Source of the DNA: a virus
Virus genome (UHGV): UHGV-0104471
DNA: 41,822 bases
Strand: one strand, 5' to 3'
Shown here: piece by piece, positions 11,768 to 36,118 of the stretch
Numbering within the stretch: position 1 is the first letter of the stretch
Layout: each line of letters starts with the position of its first letter
The notes under the pieces: model-generated
Database searches by the model: none
Seen by the model: only the letters and a program-made list of their open reading frames with translations
Told to the model about the DNA's origin: nothing
Position numbers and translations under genes: made by a program

Positions 11768-12171
11768 AGCTGGCGACCACCTGCACCGAACATCGTGATC
11801 AACTGATAAAATTCAGCGCCATATCGGGTGTTATTCCAGAAACCTGCATCAGGATTCAGCGTCGCGCTGGTGTCATAGCTGACGCTTACCTTGTCAATGG
11901 ACTTAGAGGACTGAACACCATTGGTTGAACCGCCCGGGCCGCCAACCAGCATCGCCCGACTATCTGCCGCCCAGAGCGTCATGTAGTGCGCAACGAACAA
12001 TCCGGCAAAGTACGGAAACAACTTTTTGCCGGTGACGTTTTCACTCAGCAGTTCATCGGCCAGATTCAGACGAAACTGGATTTGCGCTTCGGGATATTTG
12101 GCAGGGTCAGCAAACTGCGGGAAGTCGCGGCGAAAATCACTTACCGCTGGCAGACTTTGATTCTTTGGCAT
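11764..12171 (-). CDS. hypothetical head-tail connector protein, 135 aa
   Basis: Track ORF; ATGA coupling with the downstream gene. Confidence 0.4.
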
Positions 12172-12358
12172 TTTTTACCTCGTTACGCGCGTCTGTGGCT
12201 TTGCCAACGGATACTTCCGCGTGCGCACGAGTGAACCAGTGCGTGGCAACGTCTTCCTCCACAGCATGACGGCCTTTAACAAACTCGCGCCGTGAACAGT
12301 CGGGAAGCGTGAGCACAAACGGGGTATGTACGTGTATTACTGCATTATTTTTTGCCAT
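12137..12358 (-). CDS. small hypothetical protein, 73 aa
   Basis: Track ORF between capsid and connector genes. Confidence 0.3.
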
Positions 12359-22115: not shown

Positions 22116-22191
22116 TGGTGCTGGTTAACGGACTTGACCCGCTACCAATTCGCTTACAAGGCGACCGCTCTACCATTGGAGCTAAACCAGC
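22116..22191 (-). tRNA. tRNA-Thr(UGU)-like gene, 76 nt
   Basis: Hand fold: acceptor GCUGGUU/AACCAGC, D-arm GCUC/GAGC, anticodon loop CUUGUAA, T-arm AGCGG/CCGUU (one G-U), 3' ACCA encoded; T-loop has G at position 54. Confidence 0.5.
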
Positions 22192-22196
22192 ATGTT

Positions 22197-22271
22197 TGGC
22201 GGGACAGCGTGGACTCGAACCACGATAAGAAGGTTAACAGCCTTCCGTAATGACCTTTATACGACTGACCC
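22197..22271 (-). tRNA. tRNA-Asn(GUU)-like gene, 75 nt, imperfect acceptor and D stems
   Basis: Hand fold: anticodon arm GAAGG-CUGUUAA-CCUUC, T-arm CGUGG-UUCGAGU-CCACG, 3' GCCA; acceptor stem has one U-U mismatch; resembles E. coli tRNA-Asn around the anticodon and T arm. Confidence 0.4.
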
Positions 22272-29309: not shown

Positions 29310-30097
<788 letters not shown>

Positions 30098-30247
30098 TGG
30101 GCAAGGTGTTCTGGTCGGCGCATAGCTGGTGAAAAAATTATTTAATGCGGTGTATTGGCTGATTGTAACCCCATGTAACATCTTGCCGTCACCATTTCGG
30201 TGGTTAGATTTTTAATAAAAAAAAACAAATGTATAGCAAGGTTTTTT

Positions 30248-30727
30248 ATGGATAAAATTAATTACCCACCCCTGTTTGAGCCAGGGTTCCATGACATGGA
30301 TGAAGCTGGATTAAAATCGTATTGTGTCGATTGCTTTCCTTCATCATCCAGGCGAGGCATGCTATACTGTAATTTTATACAGCTACTCGAATCTATTCGA
30401 GAATTATCTGCTCAATATGGCTGTTTTACAGAAATATGGGTTGATGGTTCATACACCACGTCTAAACCAGAGCCTGATGATATTGATATTTTGTTGGTAT
30501 GTGACTATAGCAATATAAACTCAATACCTGTCATGCTTCGGGGCCGCGTCGATAATTTGCTTGACCGAAACTACATCAAACAAAACTACAAAATTGATGT
30601 CCTACTACTCATGAAGAATTTAGATGACCCTAACTATGATTATGAGTACTGGCGTAGTTACTGGCGCGGTTGGTTTGGTTTTGATCGCAGTGAAAACCCG
30701 AAAGGGTTAGTGAGGATTTTTTTATGA
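30248..30727 (+). CDS. predicted minimal nucleotidyltransferase-fold protein, 159 aa, in the rexA position
   Basis: Motif WVDGSYTTSKPEPDDIDILLV fits the GS-x(9-13)-DhDh signature of Pol-beta-superfamily NTases; ATG at 30248 preferred over track GTG at 30200; no similarity to recalled RexA. Confidence 0.5.
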   Translation: MDKINYPPLFEPGFHDMDEAGLKSYCVDCFPSSSRRGMLYCNFIQLLESIRELSAQYGCFTEIWVDGSYTTSKPEPDDIDILLVCDYSNINSIPVMLRGRVDNLLDRNYIKQNYKIDVLLLMKNLDDPNYDYEYWRSYWRGWFGFDRSENPKGLVRIFL

Positions 30728-31656
30728 ATGATAAATCAATGTTTAAAAATTGCGATAAACGCATTGATTTCATTCAAAAAGAAGTCGATGCAATGAAGCA
30801 AAACAAAACCAGGTCCTTTGCTGACATGCTTCTTTATCGCTCCATGGATTCTCATCTGAGCGATTTGAAGGCCGAAAAATTAAAGCAAGATAGTCGGCAC
30901 CCACTTATCGATTTTTTTGAGCTGCGGCTGAAAGGCTCTGAGGTTGACTTTGGCTCTATTCCTTTAGAGCTGCTTGGGGCTATTTCAACAAATCTTGCAG
31001 CGCTAATACAAAGAGCAACACACAAAATTGCCTCAGGCAAGGACTCAAAAAAAGTTCCCTACGACGTGAAAAGCTCCTTAAACCTCAGGCTGGCTGATTT
31101 ATCCCCTGGGTCTACAAAATTGGGCGTCACCTTCTCTACAGGAATAGCAGAATTAGTAGAAACAGTACCCAGCAAGGCTGTAAAAGGCATATTCGATTTG
31201 TTGTTAAGCGATGACGACAACAACTTCATGAATCACGTCGCTGAAATTGGATACAATTCCACTGTAAGCCTTAAGAGAATCGTAGAGGAATGCGATAAAC
31301 ACAACTTAACATTTGATGCAAGTTGGACCGGTCCATTTAGTAATGGCACCAAGGTGGCAACTATTGACTCCAATAAAATTAAGTACTTGGTGAGTAGACT
31401 TACATCAACCATTTCATCCCCTCCCATTACTGAAACGGTTACAGGCGAACTGGTCGTTCTATCCAAATATGGGAAGCTGGAGCTTGATGTTGGTGGTGAA
31501 CATTTAAAGGCTTCCTATCCGATTGAAATGCTAGATTTAATACAAAAAAAACACAAGGTCGGACAGATTGTTTCTCTTTTAGTGGAGACTACTGAGATTC
31601 ACAATGATCGCATAGGTCTGTACCGTAAAAACCATCTTGTTAAATCGGTTCTTTAA
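30724..31656 (+). CDS. hypothetical protein, 310 aa, partner of the NTase-like gene, in the rexB position
   Basis: ATGA overlap with the upstream gene; SD GAGGA; no motif recognised apart from a weak R-x4-H (RSMDSH); not hydrophobic, unlike RexB. Confidence 0.5.
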   Translation: MNDKSMFKNCDKRIDFIQKEVDAMKQNKTRSFADMLLYRSMDSHLSDLKAEKLKQDSRHPLIDFFELRLKGSEVDFGSIPLELLGAISTNLAALIQRATHKIASGKDSKKVPYDVKSSLNLRLADLSPGSTKLGVTFSTGIAELVETVPSKAVKGIFDLLLSDDDNNFMNHVAEIGYNSTVSLKRIVEECDKHNLTFDASWTGPFSNGTKVATIDSNKIKYLVSRLTSTISSPPITETVTGELVVLSKYGKLELDVGGEHLKASYPIEMLDLIQKKHKVGQIVSLLVETTEIHNDRIGLYRKNHLVKSVL

Positions 31657-31664
31657 TATCTCAC

Positions 31665-31690
31665 CCGGCCACCGCGCCGGGTTTTCTTTG
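31665..31690 (+). terminator. Rho-independent terminator (lambda t_imm-like) after the cassette
   Basis: CCCGGC-caccgc-GCCGGG followed by TTTTCTTT, 9 nt after the stop at 31656. Confidence 0.65.
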
Positions 31691-31841
31691 CCTCACGATC
31701 TCCCCACCTAAAAAAACATAACTCATTGTATTTATTGAAAAATAAATAGATACAACTCACTAAACATAGCAATTCAGATCTCTCACCTACCAAACAATGC
31801 CCCCCTGCAAAAAATAAATTCATATAAAAAACATACAGATA

Positions 31842-31910
31842 ACCATCTGCGGTGATAAATTATCTCTGGCGGTGTTGACATAAATACCACTGGCGGTGAT
31901 ACTGAGCACA
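31842..31910 (+). promoter_or_regulatory. OL3-OL2-OL1 operators and PL promoter (lambda-type)
   Basis: Matches recalled lambda pL: ...atctgcggtgataaattatctctggcggtgTTGACAtaaataccactggcggtGATACTgagcacatcag; -35 at 31875-31880, -10 at 31898-31903. Confidence 0.85.
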
Positions 31911-31941
31911 TCAGCAGGACGCACTGACCACCATGAAGGTG

Positions 31942-31972
31942 ACGCTCTTAAAAATTAAGCCCTGAAGAAGGG
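31942..31972 (+). promoter_or_regulatory. nutL (boxA CGCTCTTAA, boxB GCCCTGAAGAAGGGC)
   Basis: boxA at 31942-31950 and boxB hairpin at 31958-31972, matching recalled lambda nutL. Confidence 0.8.
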
Positions 31973-32145
31973 CAGCATTCAAAGCAGAAGGCTTTGGGGT
32001 GTGGTGAAGGGTTCATGGATGGGAATATGTCGCACGTAAAGCGGCGAGGCCTGCGGAACTATTGCCGAATTGAAGTCGGCCGAAGCAGGTCGAAATGGGT
32101 CTCCCACCTACCACACCACCAAAGCTAACTGACAGGAGAATCAAG

Positions 32146-32472
32146 ATGGATGCACAAACACGCCGCCGCGAACGTCGCGCAGAGAAACAGGCTCAATGGA
32201 AAGCAGCAAATCCCCTGTTGGTTGGGGTAAGCGCAAAACCAGTTAACCGCCCTATTCTCTCGCTGAATCGCAAACCGAAATCACGAGTAGAAAGCGCACT
32301 GAATCCGATAGACCTTACGGTGCTGGCTGAATACCACGAACAGATTGAAAGCAACCTGCAACGTATTGAGCGCAAGAATCAGCGCACATGGTACAGCAAG
32401 CCACGCAGTGAAATGGGTGTGACTTGTGTTGGTCGCCAGAAAATGAAATTAGGCAGCAAACCACTTATTTGA
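32146..32472 (+). CDS. N: antitermination protein N (lambda-type)
   Basis: MDAQTRRRERRAEKQAQWKAANPLLVGVSAKPVNRPILSLNRKPKSRVESALNPIDLTVLAEY... matches recalled lambda N; RBS ACAGGAGAATC; track ORF N-terminal extension is rejected. Confidence 0.9.
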   Translation: MDAQTRRRERRAEKQAQWKAANPLLVGVSAKPVNRPILSLNRKPKSRVESALNPIDLTVLAEYHEQIESNLQRIERKNQRTWYSKPRSEMGVTCVGRQKMKLGSKPLI

Positions 32473-32480
32473 GGTGAGAT

Positions 32481-32951
32481 ATGACAAAATCATGGAGTGT
32501 ACCTTTTCCTGAATCAGAAACTGAACATGATGGAATGCCTGTTTTCTGGAGATTCCAGGCGACAGTTGAAGAAGATGGAATCAAAATATTCGCACTTCAA
32601 TATATAGCTTTTCATCAGACAGAGCATTATGCATGGTTGGTTCCTGCGCATTGGATTGTTAATTTTAAACCAGCACCAAATCAGTGGTTACAGGAATGGA
32701 AACAAAAGAGAAATAGATATGCAATTAAGAAAGTAGCAAAAAATGCAGAAAGATCTTTTGCATTCCCAACGAAGAAACTTGCCATTGAAAGTTTATTGCG
32801 CCGGAAGAAATACCATTTAATGAGAATCAAACAAGATTTGGCTGTTGCATCAACTCTTGTTGATGGGATGAAGAATATTGATACATCAACACCAGATATT
32901 GAATATAACTTTGGACACAACCAAGAAACAGAAAATTGGGTATTTTATTAG
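32481..32951 (+). CDS. hypothetical protein, 156 aa, first gene after N in the PL operon
   Basis: Track ORF with strong SD GAGGTGAG; no recognisable motif; no predicted TM segment. Confidence 0.5.
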   Translation: MTKSWSVPFPESETEHDGMPVFWRFQATVEEDGIKIFALQYIAFHQTEHYAWLVPAHWIVNFKPAPNQWLQEWKQKRNRYAIKKVAKNAERSFAFPTKKLAIESLLRRKKYHLMRIKQDLAVASTLVDGMKNIDTSTPDIEYNFGHNQETENWVFY

Positions 32952-33094
32952 TACAAATAAGCACTGTGTATTCATTCCAACGAGTGAATACACGGAGCAA
33001 TGTCGCTCGTAACTAAACAGGAGCCGACTTGTTCTGATTATTGGAAATCTTCTTTGCCCTCCAGTGTGAGGGCAATTTTTTTAACGGGGGAAAT

Positions 33095-34063
33095 ATGAGT
33101 GAAGTAACAGATTTAGTTGTTATTGAAAAAGCAAATGCAATGACTGTATTTCAGTCTGCCGATCAGATTGAAGAAATCCTTCAAAAGGTTGAACGTGAAG
33201 TTATGTCCTTTGTGCCTGATATCACAACGGCAAAGGGAAGAAAGGAGATCGCTTCTCTGGCGTATAAAGTTGCGCAGACGAAAACATATCTCGATGGTCT
33301 TGGCAAAGACCTTGTTGCTGAACTGAAGGAAATTCCAAAGCTAATTGATGCTAACCGCAAGACAGTGCGTGATCGCCTTGATGAGCTGAAAGCCAAGGCA
33401 CGCCAGCCTCTTACTGATTATGAGGAAGAACAGGCGCGGATTAAAGCCGAAGAAGAAGCTAAGGCAGCAGCTGAAGCTCTCGCAAAGCAAATTGAGTCTG
33501 ACCATGAAATAGCGATTTTGATGGATCGCGAATTTGACCGCCAAAGAGAAGAGGCAAGACTCAAAGCGGAGCAGGAAAAGCGAGAGCATGAAGAACGCTT
33601 AAAAAGAGAAGCTGAAGAGAAAGCCAGAGCTGAAGCCGAAGCAAAGGCAAAAGCCGAAATTGAAGCAGCAGCAAGGCGAGAAGCAGAAGCTAAGGCCGCA
33701 GCGGAACGTGCAGAGCGTGAACGCATTGAAGCCGAGCAACGAGCACAGCGCGAAGCAAAAGAGGCAGCAGAACGAGCTGAAAGAGAAAAGCAGGCAGCAA
33801 TTGAAGCAGAACGCCGAAAAGCACAGGAGGAGGCAGAACGAATCCGGCGCGAGGCTGAAGCAAAAGAGCAAGCCAGAATAGCAGAAGAAAAAAGAATCAA
33901 GGACGAAGAAGAGCGTAGAGCAAAGGATAAAGCTCACCGGAGAGAAGTAAATAACAAAATACTTGCTGACCTTATCAAGGTTGGCGCATCAGAAGATGTT
34001 GCTAAAAATATCATAATAGCCATCGCAAAAGGCGAAGTATTCGCAACAAAAATAACCTACTAA
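33095..34063 (+). CDS. hypothetical protein with a long E/A/R/K-rich coiled-coil or single-alpha-helix region, 322 aa
   Basis: Track ORF started at internal ATG 33095 with SD GGGGGA; central roughly 180 aa is low-complexity AEAKAKAEIEAAARREAEAK... Confidence 0.5.
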   Translation: MSEVTDLVVIEKANAMTVFQSADQIEEILQKVEREVMSFVPDITTAKGRKEIASLAYKVAQTKTYLDGLGKDLVAELKEIPKLIDANRKTVRDRLDELKAKARQPLTDYEEEQARIKAEEEAKAAAEALAKQIESDHEIAILMDREFDRQREEARLKAEQEKREHEERLKREAEEKARAEAEAKAKAEIEAAARREAEAKAAAERAERERIEAEQRAQREAKEAAERAEREKQAAIEAERRKAQEEAERIRREAEAKEQARIAEEKRIKDEEERRAKDKAHRREVNNKILADLIKVGASEDVAKNIIIAIAKGEVFATKITY

Positions 34064-34087
34064 TAAAACCAACATAAGGAACCACCC

Positions 34088-34258
34088 ATGATTTACGCAA
34101 TCGCGGGAGGCGCTCGCATGGGTGCCTTCCAACTAAATGAATCTTTACTTGAACGAATCACCCGTAAATTACGTGACGGATGGAAACGCCTTATCGACAT
34201 ACTTAATCAGCCAGGAGTCCCAAAAAATGGATCAAGCACTTATGGCTATCCAGACTAA
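34088..34258 (+). CDS. cIII: CIII (lambda-type), 56 aa, below ORF-track size cutoff
   Basis: Hand translation MIYAIAGGARMGAFQLNESLLERITRKLRDGWKRLIDILNQPGVPKNGSSTYGYPD matches recalled lambda CIII. Confidence 0.7.
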   Translation: MIYAIAGGARMGAFQLNESLLERITRKLRDGWKRLIDILNQPGVPKNGSSTYGYPD

Positions 34259-34340
34259 ATTCACTATCGCCACTTTTATTGGCGATGAAAAGATGTTTCG
34301 TGAGGCCGTAGAAGCCTACAGAAAATGGAGGTCAAAATGA
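34227..34340 (+). CDS. kil: Kil-like protein (lambda-type), start inside cIII in another frame
   Basis: MDQALMAIQTKFTIATFIGDEKMFREAVEAYRKW matches the recalled lambda Kil N-terminus; SD AGGAG; track ORF upstream extension is rejected. Confidence 0.6.
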   Translation: MDQALMAIQTKFTIATFIGDEKMFREAVEAYRKWRSK

Positions 34341-34525
34341 TTCCGGTAGAACTGGCGAAAACTCCAGAGTTAAGTCGATTAAAAAGAGAATATCACATTG
34401 CTGAGGCTCGTTACTGGCGTAAAGCGGGAGATAAATCAAAGAAACAACTTTGTTTATGGCAGGCGCAAAGAGAGCGCATGAATGAGCGCGAATTTCTTTC
34501 CTCCCCATCCGAATTACCATTCTGA
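34325..34525 (+). CDS. hypothetical protein, 66 aa
   Basis: Track ORF between kil and the Sak4-like gene; start uncertain. Confidence 0.35.
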   Translation: MEVKMIPVELAKTPELSRLKREYHIAEARYWRKAGDKSKKQLCLWQAQRERMNEREFLSSPSELPF

Positions 34526-34533
34526 GGTGAATT

Positions 34534-35214
34534 ATGGGAACTGCGACATTAATACTCGGTGAATCTGGCACCGGAAAATCAACCAGCATGAGAAATATCA
34601 ATCCAGAGGAAGCAATACTTATAAAACCAATAGGCAAGCCGCTTCCATTTAAATCAAAAGACTGGCTGGCATGGGATGCCAGAGCAAAAAAAGGAACCGT
34701 AGTTACCACTGACAAATGGGACGTAATAGTTGCCGTAATTAAGCGTGCTCACGAATACGGGAAAAGAATCGTTATTGTTGATGACTTCCAGTATGTGATG
34801 AGCAATGAGTTTATGCGCCGCTCAGAAGAAAAGTCGTTTGATAAATTCACTGAGATAGGCCGTCACGCATGGGAGGTCATTAAGGCTGCACAGGATGCGC
34901 CTGATGACCTGAGAGTCTATTTTCTTGCGCACACCGAAGAAACTCCTATGGGGCGTGTGAAAATGAAGACTATCGGCAAAATGCTGGACGAGAAAATCAC
35001 TGTCGAAGGCATGTTTACTATAGTTCTTCGCACCCTTACCCGTGATGACCAGTTCTTTTTCACCACAAAAAACAACGGTGCAGACACTGTTAAATCCCCA
35101 ATGGGAATGTTTGACTCCAATGAGATTGATAACGATCTCTCTTTCGTCGATACCACTATTTGTGATTACTACGGCATCAATAATGATCATCAAATTAAGG
35201 AAAACGCCGCATGA
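34534..35214 (+). CDS. Sak4-like / AAA_24 family ATPase (RecA-fold recombination protein)
   Basis: Walker A GESGTGKST near the N-terminus, Walker B IVIVDDF; about 226 aa; followed by an SSB-like gene. Confidence 0.65.
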   Translation: MGTATLILGESGTGKSTSMRNINPEEAILIKPIGKPLPFKSKDWLAWDARAKKGTVVTTDKWDVIVAVIKRAHEYGKRIVIVDDFQYVMSNEFMRRSEEKSFDKFTEIGRHAWEVIKAAQDAPDDLRVYFLAHTEETPMGRVKMKTIGKMLDEKITVEGMFTIVLRTLTRDDQFFFTTKNNGADTVKSPMGMFDSNEIDNDLSFVDTTICDYYGINNDHQIKENAA

Positions 35215-35798
35215 GCAACGTGATTTTTACTTATAACGAAGAAGCAGCACTGACCGCAGGGCAAGGTGGTTTTATTAACGAAACTGGCGCTCATATCATT
35301 ACCATTACTGAAGCAGAACTAAAGCAATCAGAAAAAGGAGCCAAATTTATTGAGTTTTCTGGCGAATCCGACGACGGACGTAAAATCCAATATCTTAGCG
35401 TCTGTGTTCAGAAAAATGACGGAACGGAAAACAAATTTGGCGCAAATGTCGTTCACGCCATGATGGGGTGTGCCGGGATTGGACAATTAACGCAGCATAT
35501 GGTTTCCGCCAGTAAATTTGTTGCTCCTGAGTTTCACGGAAAGAAAATCGGGTTAGTGCTACAGAAAGTATTAACCACAAACAAAAAGACTGGTGCAGAC
35601 AGTTACCAGATGGAAATACGCATCCCGTTTATTGCACAAACAGGTCAAACACTTAAAGAAAAGGCGGAAGGCAAGCAACCAGAAACTATCGCCAACATGG
35701 TTGCCAGCCTCAAAGATAAAGACAATCGCTCTAAAAACGTAAGCCAGAATCATGCAGATGATTATGGTTACAGCCAGAACGATTACCCTCCTTTCTGA
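35211..35798 (+). CDS. SSB-like protein with acidic aromatic C-terminal tail (...DDYGYSQNDYPPF)
   Basis: ATGA coupling with the Sak4-like gene; C-terminal acidic tail ending in PF as in SSB proteins; OB fold not verified. Confidence 0.5.
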   Translation: MSNVIFTYNEEAALTAGQGGFINETGAHIITITEAELKQSEKGAKFIEFSGESDDGRKIQYLSVCVQKNDGTENKFGANVVHAMMGCAGIGQLTQHMVSASKFVAPEFHGKKIGLVLQKVLTTNKKTGADSYQMEIRIPFIAQTGQTLKEKAEGKQPETIANMVASLKDKDNRSKNVSQNHADDYGYSQNDYPPF

Positions 35799-35821
35799 TT
35801 ACTGAAAATAAGGCTCCCATT

Positions 35822-36118
35822 ATGCCAGCGCCTCTGTATGGTGCGGATGACGCTCGCCGCTGTTCCGGCAATTCCATATCGGAGGTGCTGGAAAATATCA
35901 AGAATAATCTCGACGCGTTTCTTGCTCTGCCACCAGAAACAAAAGAAGAACGGAAGTACCGACGCGATATACAACTCGCAGAAAAACAGGAAAAAGACAG
36001 AATAAACGAAACATCAATCCGACCATTCCGCAAATTCACATATACCCACTTCCCTGAATATATCGACCCGCGCCTGCGTAATTACCGCTCACGCTATGGC
36101 GCTATCAGTAATGACTGA
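35822..36118 (+). CDS. hypothetical protein, 98 aa
   Basis: Track ORF. Confidence 0.4.

What the first reader, a model, noticed from the sequence alone, without database searches (positions are those of the whole stretch)
32481..32951. Unrecognised 156-aa gene immediately downstream of N in the PL operon
Seen in sequence: N is lambda-like, but the first gene after it (strong SD GAGGTGAG, start 9 nt after the N stop) encodes a soluble 156-aa protein I cannot match to lambda ral, sieB or any other early-left gene. Established knowledge: this position in lambdoid phages typically carries host-takeover, anti-restriction or exclusion functions expressed immediately on infection or induction. Inference: candidate anti-defence or host-modulation factor.
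Basis: inference. Interest (0 to 1): 0.5.

Follow-up and report, generated by a model that had tools for sequence, protein, structure and literature searches.

The report
Uncharacterised early phage gene after N
The 156-aa gene right after N is real and conserved. It is the already catalogued but never characterised HK97 gp45 / 933W L0079 protein, a small basic phage protein whose predicted fold matches no solved structure, and its role (possibly counter-defence) remains untested.

Summary
Observation confirmed. Window 32481..32951 (+) is a 156-aa ORF that starts 9 nt after the N stop, behind a GAGGTGAG Shine-Dalgarno.

It is not unrecognised. It is 98-99% identical to HK97 gp45, 933W L0079, phi24B vb_24B_11c and an unannotated H-19B ORF. 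It matches PHROG 1636 ("unknown function") at E 3e-111. The cassette is in 591 of 5426 complete E. coli genomes, always annotated as hypothetical.

The gene sits on a 558-bp AT-rich cassette (ORF 35.7% GC; window 48.6%). This cassette replaces lambda's sieB-orf28-ral segment. A linker of about 60 bp precedes it, and the lambda ral-ea10 intrinsic terminator follows it. It should therefore be co-transcribed with N before any predicted intrinsic terminator.

The protein is soluble, basic (pI 9; residues 63-120 pI 10.9), under purifying selection, and has no conserved partner gene.

Function is unknown. My best guess (about 0.3) is an immediate-early binder of nucleic acid or another phosphate-bearing ligand, with a counter-defence role. 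It is a reasonable experimental target, not a discovery.

The parts
31875..31903 (+). PL promoter (TTGACA-17 nt-GATACT), the only sigma-70-like site on the + strand upstream of the ORF
   Evidence: It lies in a segment 96.8% identical to lambda PL/OL (31663-32007).
31959..31973 (+). nutL boxB hairpin GCCCTGAAGAAGGGC
   Evidence: Sequence; the hairpin was picked up. Identified as boxB from knowledge of lambda nutL and from its position in the lambda-identical segment.
32146..32472 (+). N antiterminator gene, 107 aa. The 5' 257 nt are lambda-type. The last ~23 codons come from the shared linker.
32419..32480 (+). Conserved ~60-bp linker (N 3' end, stop, SD GAGGTGAG at 32471-32478). It is shared by HK97, 933W and prophages with a different downstream cassette, so it is probably a recombination joint.
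   Evidence: Alignment; 1370 of 5426 genomes match some part of the cassette query, but only 591 carry at least 80% of it.
32403..32960 (+). 558-bp AT-rich cassette that replaces lambda 34046-35103 (N 3' end, sieB, orf28, ral)
   Evidence: blastn breakpoints; lambda annotation; ORF 35.7% GC against 48.6% for the window
32481..32951 (+). The 156-aa ORF (HK97 gp45 / 933W L0079 / PHROG 1636 family)
32966..32993 (+). Perfect 12-bp stem-loop just after the stop codon, inside the segment 99% identical to lambda 33925-34045
   Evidence: region folds with z = -5.4
33054..33082 (+). Intrinsic terminator (8-bp G+C-rich stem, then T7). It is the first predicted terminator downstream of PL and is identical to the lambda ral-ea10 intergenic terminator and the HK97 'putative terminator' after gene 45.

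Best explanation
Shown: the ORF is a genuine, non-essential accessory gene of the early-left (PL) operon and belongs to the HK97 gp45 / 933W L0079 family. It sits on a mobile AT-rich cassette directly behind N and upstream of the first predicted intrinsic terminator.

Inferred from that layout: it should be transcribed together with N within the first minutes of infection or induction, without needing N-mediated antitermination, and it should be silent in the repressed prophage.

Shown: the product is a compact, soluble, single-domain alpha/beta protein. It has three long antiparallel strands (residues 19-55), short helices, a fourth strand (83-86) and a 33-residue amphipathic helix (98-130). 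No solved structure resembles it. Its central third is strongly basic (17 Lys/Arg in residues 63-120, pI 10.9). The family-wide conserved polar positions are an aromatic-basic pair (W23-R24), G33, [E/Q]46-T47, K83, K87 and K109.

Inferred mechanism: the protein acts alone, as a stoichiometric binder of a phosphate-rich ligand found in very different hosts. The ligand is most likely DNA or RNA, less likely a nucleotide. In doing so it shields the incoming or replicating phage genome from a nucleic-acid-directed host function, or blocks that function. That would make it a counter-defence or anti-nuclease accessory factor. Ligand, target and phenotype are all untested. The confidence given (0.3) is for the inferred mechanism; that the ORF is a real early accessory gene of the gp45 family is about 0.95.
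For: Identity and family: PHROG 1636 at E 3e-111. 98-99% identity to HK97 gp45, 933W L0079 and others in 80 phage records. 87 cluster representatives at E<=1e-3 in a profile search of 1.84 billion proteins. A reciprocal tblastn from distant member P0075 returns to the Stx-phage ORF.

Real coding gene: dN/dS 0.09-0.19; shuffle test.

Immediate-early layout: PL at 31875-31903; no predicted terminator before 33054-33082; 9-nt spacing from N with a strong SD.

Accessory and mobile: the cassette replaces lambda's sieB-ral segment. ORF GC is 35.7% against 48.6% for the window. An alternative cassette follows the same linker elsewhere. Lambda and N4 lack the gene, while the N4-like phage phiAxp-3 has it.

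Basic character and conserved residues: (family median pI 8.9).

Acts alone: no conserved neighbour family in 18 contexts; no informative domain fusions.

Context: a DNA methyltransferase lies in the same operon within about 5 kb in 6 of 17 homologue contexts, and a Lar-like gene lies two genes upstream in one.
Against: No test here bears directly on ligand or target. A basic surface and conserved Lys/Arg are weak predictors.

Strong purifying selection and near-identity across hundreds of E. coli prophages are unlike the fast-evolving direct inhibitors of host immune proteins.

Methyltransferases are common in early-left operons anyway, and I had no background rate, so the association is not quantified.

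The gene's place in the operon is not fixed. It is N-proximal in E. coli and Cronobacter but next to xis-int in Pectobacterium and Brenneria. Immediate-early timing is therefore not a family-wide property.

Rho-dependent terminators cannot be predicted with these tools.
Confidence: 0.3

Rival explanations
1. Host-physiology or lysis-lysogeny modulator. Like Kil, CIII, Ea8.5 or the exo-xis ORFs of lambdoid phages, the protein would bind a conserved host protein and tune cell division, proteolysis, the cell cycle or SOS. This would benefit phage development rather than counter an immune system.
For: It lies in the same operon as kil, cIII-type genes, recombination genes and xis/int in every temperate context. 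It is non-essential and swappable. Purifying selection fits a conserved host target.
Against: Homologues occur in virulent phages that make no lysogeny decision (N4-like phiAxp-3, Vi01-like phiEa2809, LIET2). They also occur in phages of Bacteroidota and Alpha-, Beta- and Gammaproteobacteria. A host protein target would have to be nearly universal. No similarity to any known modulator.
Confidence: 0.2
2. Regulator of the phage's own gene expression or DNA metabolism. The protein would be a small DNA- or RNA-binding factor acting on phage promoters, transcripts or replication and recombination intermediates.
For: Basic central segment and conserved Lys/Arg. Early position, and first or second gene of divergent early operons in Bas81 and Vibrio phage PvVp04. 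Neighbours are often recombination or replication genes.
Against: The nearly identical protein is linked to at least three different N alleles and immunity regions (lambda-type here, HK97-type, 933W-type). A sequence-specific regulator would be expected to co-vary with its sites. No HTH, Arc/MetJ, AP2 or other DNA-binding signature was found. It is dispensable in close relatives that lack it.
Confidence: 0.2
3. Sponge or enzyme for an immune signalling nucleotide, working like Tad1, Tad2, Acb1 or Acb2. The conserved [E/Q]T, Lys and Arg residues would form a small-molecule pocket.
For: Small, stand-alone and early, and spread across phages of many phyla, as the known sponges are. A cluster of conserved polar residues.
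Against: No structural similarity to any solved sponge or anti-signalling enzyme. Oligomerisation was not predicted or tested. The conserved Glu is Gln in the E. coli subfamily.
Confidence: 0.08
4. Superinfection-exclusion or defence gene that benefits the lysogen, as sieB does in the corresponding lambda segment.
For: It occupies the slot where lambda carries sieB. The window carries another candidate defence pair (PDC-M63) in the rex position.
Against: No promoter of its own was predicted, and it lies on the repressed PL transcript. It is soluble with no membrane segment, unlike SieB. No PADLOC match. It is also present in virulent phages.
Confidence: 0.07

Closest known systems
HK97 gp45 / 933W L0079 / phi24B vb_24B_11c (PHROG 1636, function unknown)
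   Same: 98-99% amino-acid identity over all 156 residues. Same place directly downstream of N, same linker and same downstream terminator.
   Different: Here the cassette is joined to a lambda-type N, so the N reading frame runs through the linker and ends 9 nt before the ORF. In HK97 and 933W, N ends 58 nt upstream. No member has a described function.
Lambda ral / sieB segment (N-proximal accessory slot of the PL operon)
   Same: Same chromosomal slot between N and the ral-ea10 terminator. Ral is likewise an early, non-essential gene on the PL transcript.
   Different: No sequence or profile similarity to Ral. Not a membrane protein like SieB. sieB is encoded on the opposite strand from N in lambda, whereas this ORF is on the PL strand.
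Small stand-alone phage anti-defence proteins (Ocr, ArdA, KlcA/ArdB, Tad1, Tad2, Acb2, Gad1 and others)
   Same: Size, early expression, accessory and mosaic distribution, wide spread across phages.
Tudor / PWWP / chromo-barrel and AP2-type small beta-sheet-plus-helix domains

Membership tests
HK97 gp45 / PHROG 1636 | Full-length match to the family profile | tested here: met
   E 3.2e-111, residues 1-156 against profile positions 1-156 of 156
HK97 gp45 / PHROG 1636 | High identity to the named members (HK97 gp45, 933W L0079) | tested here: met
   98.1% to HK97 gp45 and 98.7% to 933W L0079 over 156 aa
HK97 gp45 / PHROG 1636 | Location in the early-left operon downstream of N | tested here: met
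   More distant members are elsewhere in the same operon.
Ral (restriction alleviation) | Sequence or profile similarity to lambda Ral | tested here: not met
   hhalign probability 0.1%; no PHROG or Pfam Ral/Lar hit
SieB-type superinfection exclusion | Membrane protein with hydrophobic segments | tested here: not met
   Maximum Kyte-Doolittle(19) 0.56; the AF2 model is a compact soluble alpha/beta domain
SieB-type superinfection exclusion | Expressed in the lysogen from its own promoter | tested here: inconclusive
   Between PL and the ORF start, the consensus scan finds no + strand promoter other than PL. A consensus scan cannot exclude weak promoters.
Known anti-phage defence proteins (PADLOC-DB) | Match to a defence-protein profile | tested here: not met
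   0 families at E<=0.01
Known anti-defence proteins with solved structures (Ocr, ArdA, KlcA, Tad1/2, Acb1/2, Gad1 and others) | Fold similarity to a solved member | tested here: not met
Known anti-defence proteins (AntiDefenseFinder / dbAPIS profiles) | Match to a curated anti-defence profile | not testable with these tools
   These libraries are not available here. Indirect evidence: a DefenseFinder anti-defence scan of Stx phages, several of which are among the carriers, listed only methyltransferases, Ral and Gam (PMC12502783).
AP2 / integrase arm-type DNA-binding domain | Profile match (PF00847 / PF09003) or significant fold match | tested here: not met
Anti-restriction / anti-defence function in general | Relief of restriction or of a defence system in vivo | not testable with these tools
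   Needs plating assays

The most novel reading that the evidence does not exclude
The protein would be the E. coli representative of a phage-wide family with a fold absent from solved structures. It would be made immediately on infection or induction and would neutralise a widely conserved nucleic-acid-directed host defence or repair function by binding DNA, RNA or a nucleotide ligand. That would be a new class of counter-defence protein. It is carried by about one in nine sequenced E. coli genomes and by many Shiga-toxin phages.
Probability: 0.25. Interest if true: 0.65.

Novelty: already known. Interest (0 to 1): 0.35.

Why it matters
This gene is one of the most common unknowns in E. coli prophages. 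The cassette is in 591 of 5426 complete genomes, and the gene is in 86 phage records, mostly Stx1- and Stx2-converting phages, plus HK97.

In these E. coli phages it is the first gene after N and lies ahead of the first predicted terminator. It is therefore probably among the first phage proteins made when a Shiga-toxin prophage is induced.

It now has a high-confidence structural model with no solved counterpart. It also has a defined set of conserved residues to mutate. Relatives exist in virulent and temperate phages of several phyla.

If it proves to be a counter-defence or host-takeover factor, it would add a new fold to that repertoire and could bear on Stx-phage host range and induction biology. 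If it has no such phenotype, it stays an ordinary accessory ORFan. The computational evidence cannot decide between these outcomes.

Tried and rejected
- Pfam, NCBIfam and PADLOC scans of the protein, and Pfam on all 74 aligned family members, gave nothing above noise.
- All matching PHROGs (1636, 13631, 25384, 18686, 37429, 28215) are 'unknown function'.
- PDB sequence searches with two profiles gave only E>0.5 noise.
- The first AF2 run, on a shallow alignment of 21 sequences, gave pLDDT 66 and was set aside. The 74-sequence alignment gave 95.8.
- hhalign against lambda Ral and the Int arm-binding domain found no relation.
- I searched for a conserved partner gene in 18 genomic contexts. None was found; only methyltransferase and integrase recur.
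- I searched for domain fusions. The two long hits (P0062, P0081) are repeat or low-complexity artefacts.
- I tested whether the N4-like homologues might correspond to N4 gp2, which I recall as an ssDNA-binding cofactor. Rejected: the phiAxp-3 homologue is at 11978..12340, not at the gp2 position, and the first 30 kb of N4 hold no homologue.
- A plasmid search looked for a leading-region (anti-defence island) location. It found 11 records, all predicted non-mobilizable.
- Literature searches for L0079, HK97 gp45, vb_24B_11c, phrog_1636, and lambdoid/anti-defence found nothing on this gene. It is absent from the held supplements of the Silas et al. accessory-gene screen.
- The search for related loci failed with the broad alignment (too divergent) and yielded little with single distant members.

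Full report
**1. Observation**

The window carries a lambdoid immunity and early-left region on the + strand.
- cI lies at 29384..30097.
- PL is at 31875-31903 (TTGACA-17-GATACT).
- The nutL boxB hairpin is at 31959-31973.
- N is at 32146..32472.
- The reported ORF is at 32481..32951.

The N stop codon is at 32470-32472. GAGGTGAG spans 32471-32478, and the ATG is at 32481.

The ORF is not a chance open frame.
- Only 5 of 5000 shuffles of the cassette reach 156 codons in any frame.
- dN/dS against four relatives (HK97, 933W, Huey, Rosenbergiella) is 0.09-0.19. More distant pairs have saturated dS with dN of only 0.2-0.39.
- The N-terminal residues are conserved in relatives down to 55% identity, which fixes the start codon.

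**2. What the gene is**

It is not unrecognised in the databases.
- It matches PHROG 1636 ("unknown function") end to end at E 3e-111.
- tblastn finds it in 86 phage records, 80 of them at 95% identity or more. These include HK97 (gp45), 933W (L0079), phi24B (vb_24B_11c), BP-4795, Min27, many Stx1a and Stx2a phages, H-19B (unannotated there), and the BASEL temperate phages Huey and Dewey.
- The exact sequence was seen on 189 contigs. It sits in a 90%-identity cluster of 639 member sequences, and a second cluster of near-identical proteins holds 798 more. Every source calls it "hypothetical" or "prophage protein".
- The cassette covers at least 80% of its length in 591 of 5426 complete E. coli genomes.
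- Full-text searches for L0079, HK97 gp45, vb_24B_11c and phrog_1636 found no functional work.

**3. Anatomy of the locus**

blastn against lambda shows identity through the 5' part of N (window 32112-32402). There is then a break, and identity resumes at 32961-33081. That second segment corresponds to lambda 33925-34045, the ral-ea10 intergenic region.

So the 558 bp at 32403-32960 replace lambda 34046-35103. That lambda segment holds the N 3' end, sieB, orf28 and ral.

Identity to HK97 runs from 32419 to 33081. The first ~60 bp of that stretch are a linker (N 3' end, stop, SD). The same linker is found in HK97 and 933W, where N stops 58 nt upstream. It is also found in prophages that carry a different 83-aa acidic ORF (PHROG 2471, unknown function) at the same spot. 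This looks like the boundary-sequence recombination joints typical of lambdoid mosaicism.

The ORF is 35.7% G+C against 48.6% for the window.

Downstream, the intergenic RNA folds far better than shuffles (z = -5.4). It forms a 12-bp hairpin (32966-32993) and a classic intrinsic terminator (33054-33075 followed by U7). HK97 annotates the same element as a putative terminator.

No other terminator is predicted between PL and this point, and no other + strand promoter is predicted between PL and the ORF. I infer that the ORF is on the N-independent immediate-early PL transcript and is silent in the repressed prophage. Rho-dependent termination cannot be assessed here.

**4. The wider family**

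A word-indexed search found only Enterobacterales relatives at 55% identity or more.

A full HMMER profile search of 1.84 billion cluster representatives found 87 proteins at E<=1e-3. Most are 130-160 aa and 20-28% identical to the query. A reciprocal tblastn from one of them (P0075) returns to the Stx-phage ORF.

Foldseek against predicted viral structures adds uncharacterised proteins from phages of Erwinia, Achromobacter, Delftia, Rhizobium, Sinorhizobium, Tenacibaculum and Cellulophaga. A local hmmsearch confirms the phiAxp-3 member at 11978..12340 (E 6.5e-10). No homologue is found in the first 30 kb of N4.

The family is therefore phage-wide, accessory, and present in both temperate and virulent phages.

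Position in the operon varies among temperate relatives.
- In Cronobacter the gene lies downstream of N, about 750 nt after it.
- In Pectobacterium and Brenneria it lies next to xis-int.
- In marine gammaproteobacterial prophages it lies among small accessory ORFs between the recombination genes and int.

No neighbour family is conserved across 18 contexts. The only recurring neighbours are integrase and DNA methyltransferases. A methyltransferase is within about 5 kb in 6 of 17 contexts. A Lar-like gene lies two genes upstream in one.

The gene was found on only 11 plasmid records, all predicted non-mobilizable.

**5. The protein**

With the 74-sequence alignment, AlphaFold2 gives pLDDT 95.8 and pTM 0.83. 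A 21-sequence alignment gave only 66. The model has:
- strands at 19-30, 33-46 and 50-55;
- short helices at 56-61 and 66-74;
- a strand at 83-86;
- a helix at 98-130;
- an ordered C-terminal tail.

The protein is soluble and basic overall (pI 9.05). It has an acidic N-terminal third, a very basic middle (residues 63-120: 17 K/R, pI 10.9) and an acidic tail. The family median pI is 8.9.

Family-wide conserved positions are:
- an aromatic-basic pair (W23-R24);
- G33;
- [E/Q]46-T47;
- K83, K87 and K109;
- A101 (invariant);
- the hydrophobic face of the long helix;
- a C-terminal aromatic residue (F155).

**6. How it most likely works**

Shown: it is an early-operon accessory gene. It stands alone, is soluble and basic, has a predicted fold with no solved counterpart, is under purifying selection, and occurs in phages of very different hosts.

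Inferred: the same small domain serves phages of Bacteroidota and Proteobacteria without a partner. Its target is therefore probably universal. The conserved Lys/Arg cluster points to a phosphate-rich ligand, most likely nucleic acid.

I also weigh the slot it occupies (ral and sieB in lambda) and the recurring methyltransferase and Lar neighbours. On that basis I commit to a counter-defence or anti-nuclease role exerted by nucleic-acid (or nucleotide) binding, at about 0.3.

Rivals are:
- host-physiology or lysogeny modulation (0.2);
- regulation of the phage's own expression or DNA metabolism (0.2);
- a nucleotide sponge or enzyme (0.08);
- superinfection exclusion (0.07).

The remaining probability is for something not listed. 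None of these can be separated with the tools available.

**7. Comparison with the known, and novelty**

As an object, the gene is already known. It is HK97 gp45 / 933W L0079, a catalogued ORFan.

It is not a member of Ral, SieB, any PADLOC defence family, any solved anti-defence fold, or the AP2 or arm-type DNA-binding families. Each of these was tested and not met.

This analysis adds five things:
- the exact cassette boundaries and the shared linker;
- the inference of N-independent expression;
- the wide phage family;
- a confident structural model with no solved counterpart;
- a short list of conserved residues.

**8. Verdict**

Interest is moderate (0.35). It is a good candidate for a deletion and expression screen, particularly in Stx phages, but it is not in itself a surprising finding.

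Noticed in passing
window 30200..30727 and 30724..31656 (+): The slot between cI and PL, which holds rexA/rexB in lambda, carries two overlapping genes (175 and 310 aa; 38-40% GC) instead. They match the PADLOC candidate defence pair PDC-M63A (E 2e-41) and PDC-M63B (E 8e-45), and PHROGs 9194 and 6603 (unknown function). This is probably a prophage-encoded defence system expressed with cI.
   Followed up: partly
window 32419..32480 (+): A linker of about 60 bp (N 3' end, stop, SD) is shared by phages with different N alleles (lambda-type, HK97, 933W) and by prophages carrying an alternative 83-aa acidic ORF (WP_000394299, PHROG 2471) in the same slot. In HK97 and 933W it is non-coding and looks like a remnant of a lambda-type N 3' end. 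It is probably a recombination joint for cassette exchange.
   Followed up: partly
window 33095..34063 (+): The first gene after the terminator encodes a 322-aa protein with a long Lys/Ala/Glu-rich, probably coiled-coil, middle part. It matches PHROG 1376/21365 (unknown function) and is annotated 'TolA protein' in some records, presumably because of composition. The same gene follows the homologue in a Rosenbergiella prophage (L027).
   Followed up: partly
window 34534..36118 (+): The recombination module is not lambda Red. It consists of a Sak4-like ATPase/annealase (226 aa), an SSB-like protein (195 aa) and an Abc2 anti-RecBCD homologue (98 aa), preceded by kil (34137..34340).
   Followed up: partly
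window 22116..22271 (-): Two adjacent phage-borne tRNA genes, tRNA-Thr(TGT) and tRNA-Asn(GTT).
   Followed up: no
window 32966..32993 (+): A perfect 12-bp stem-loop lies immediately after the ORF stop, within the segment 99% identical to lambda 33925-34045. It is separate from the terminator hairpin. Its function is unknown; it could be an RNA-processing or stability element.
   Followed up: no
window 32942..32970 (-): A weak sigma-70-like site (TACACA-17-TAAAAT, 9 of 12) points antisense into the 3' end of the ORF. It is not above chance expectation (2 sites found, 3.4 expected).
   Followed up: no
L014 3800..5447 (metagenomic phage contig SRR7986306_1328): A distant homologue is preceded by a Lar-like restriction-alleviation gene and by a 302-aa unknown ORF whose stop overlaps the homologue's start by 8 nt. 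The same 8-nt overlap with unrelated upstream ORFs occurs in L015, L016, L017 and L019, which suggests translational coupling.
   Followed up: partly
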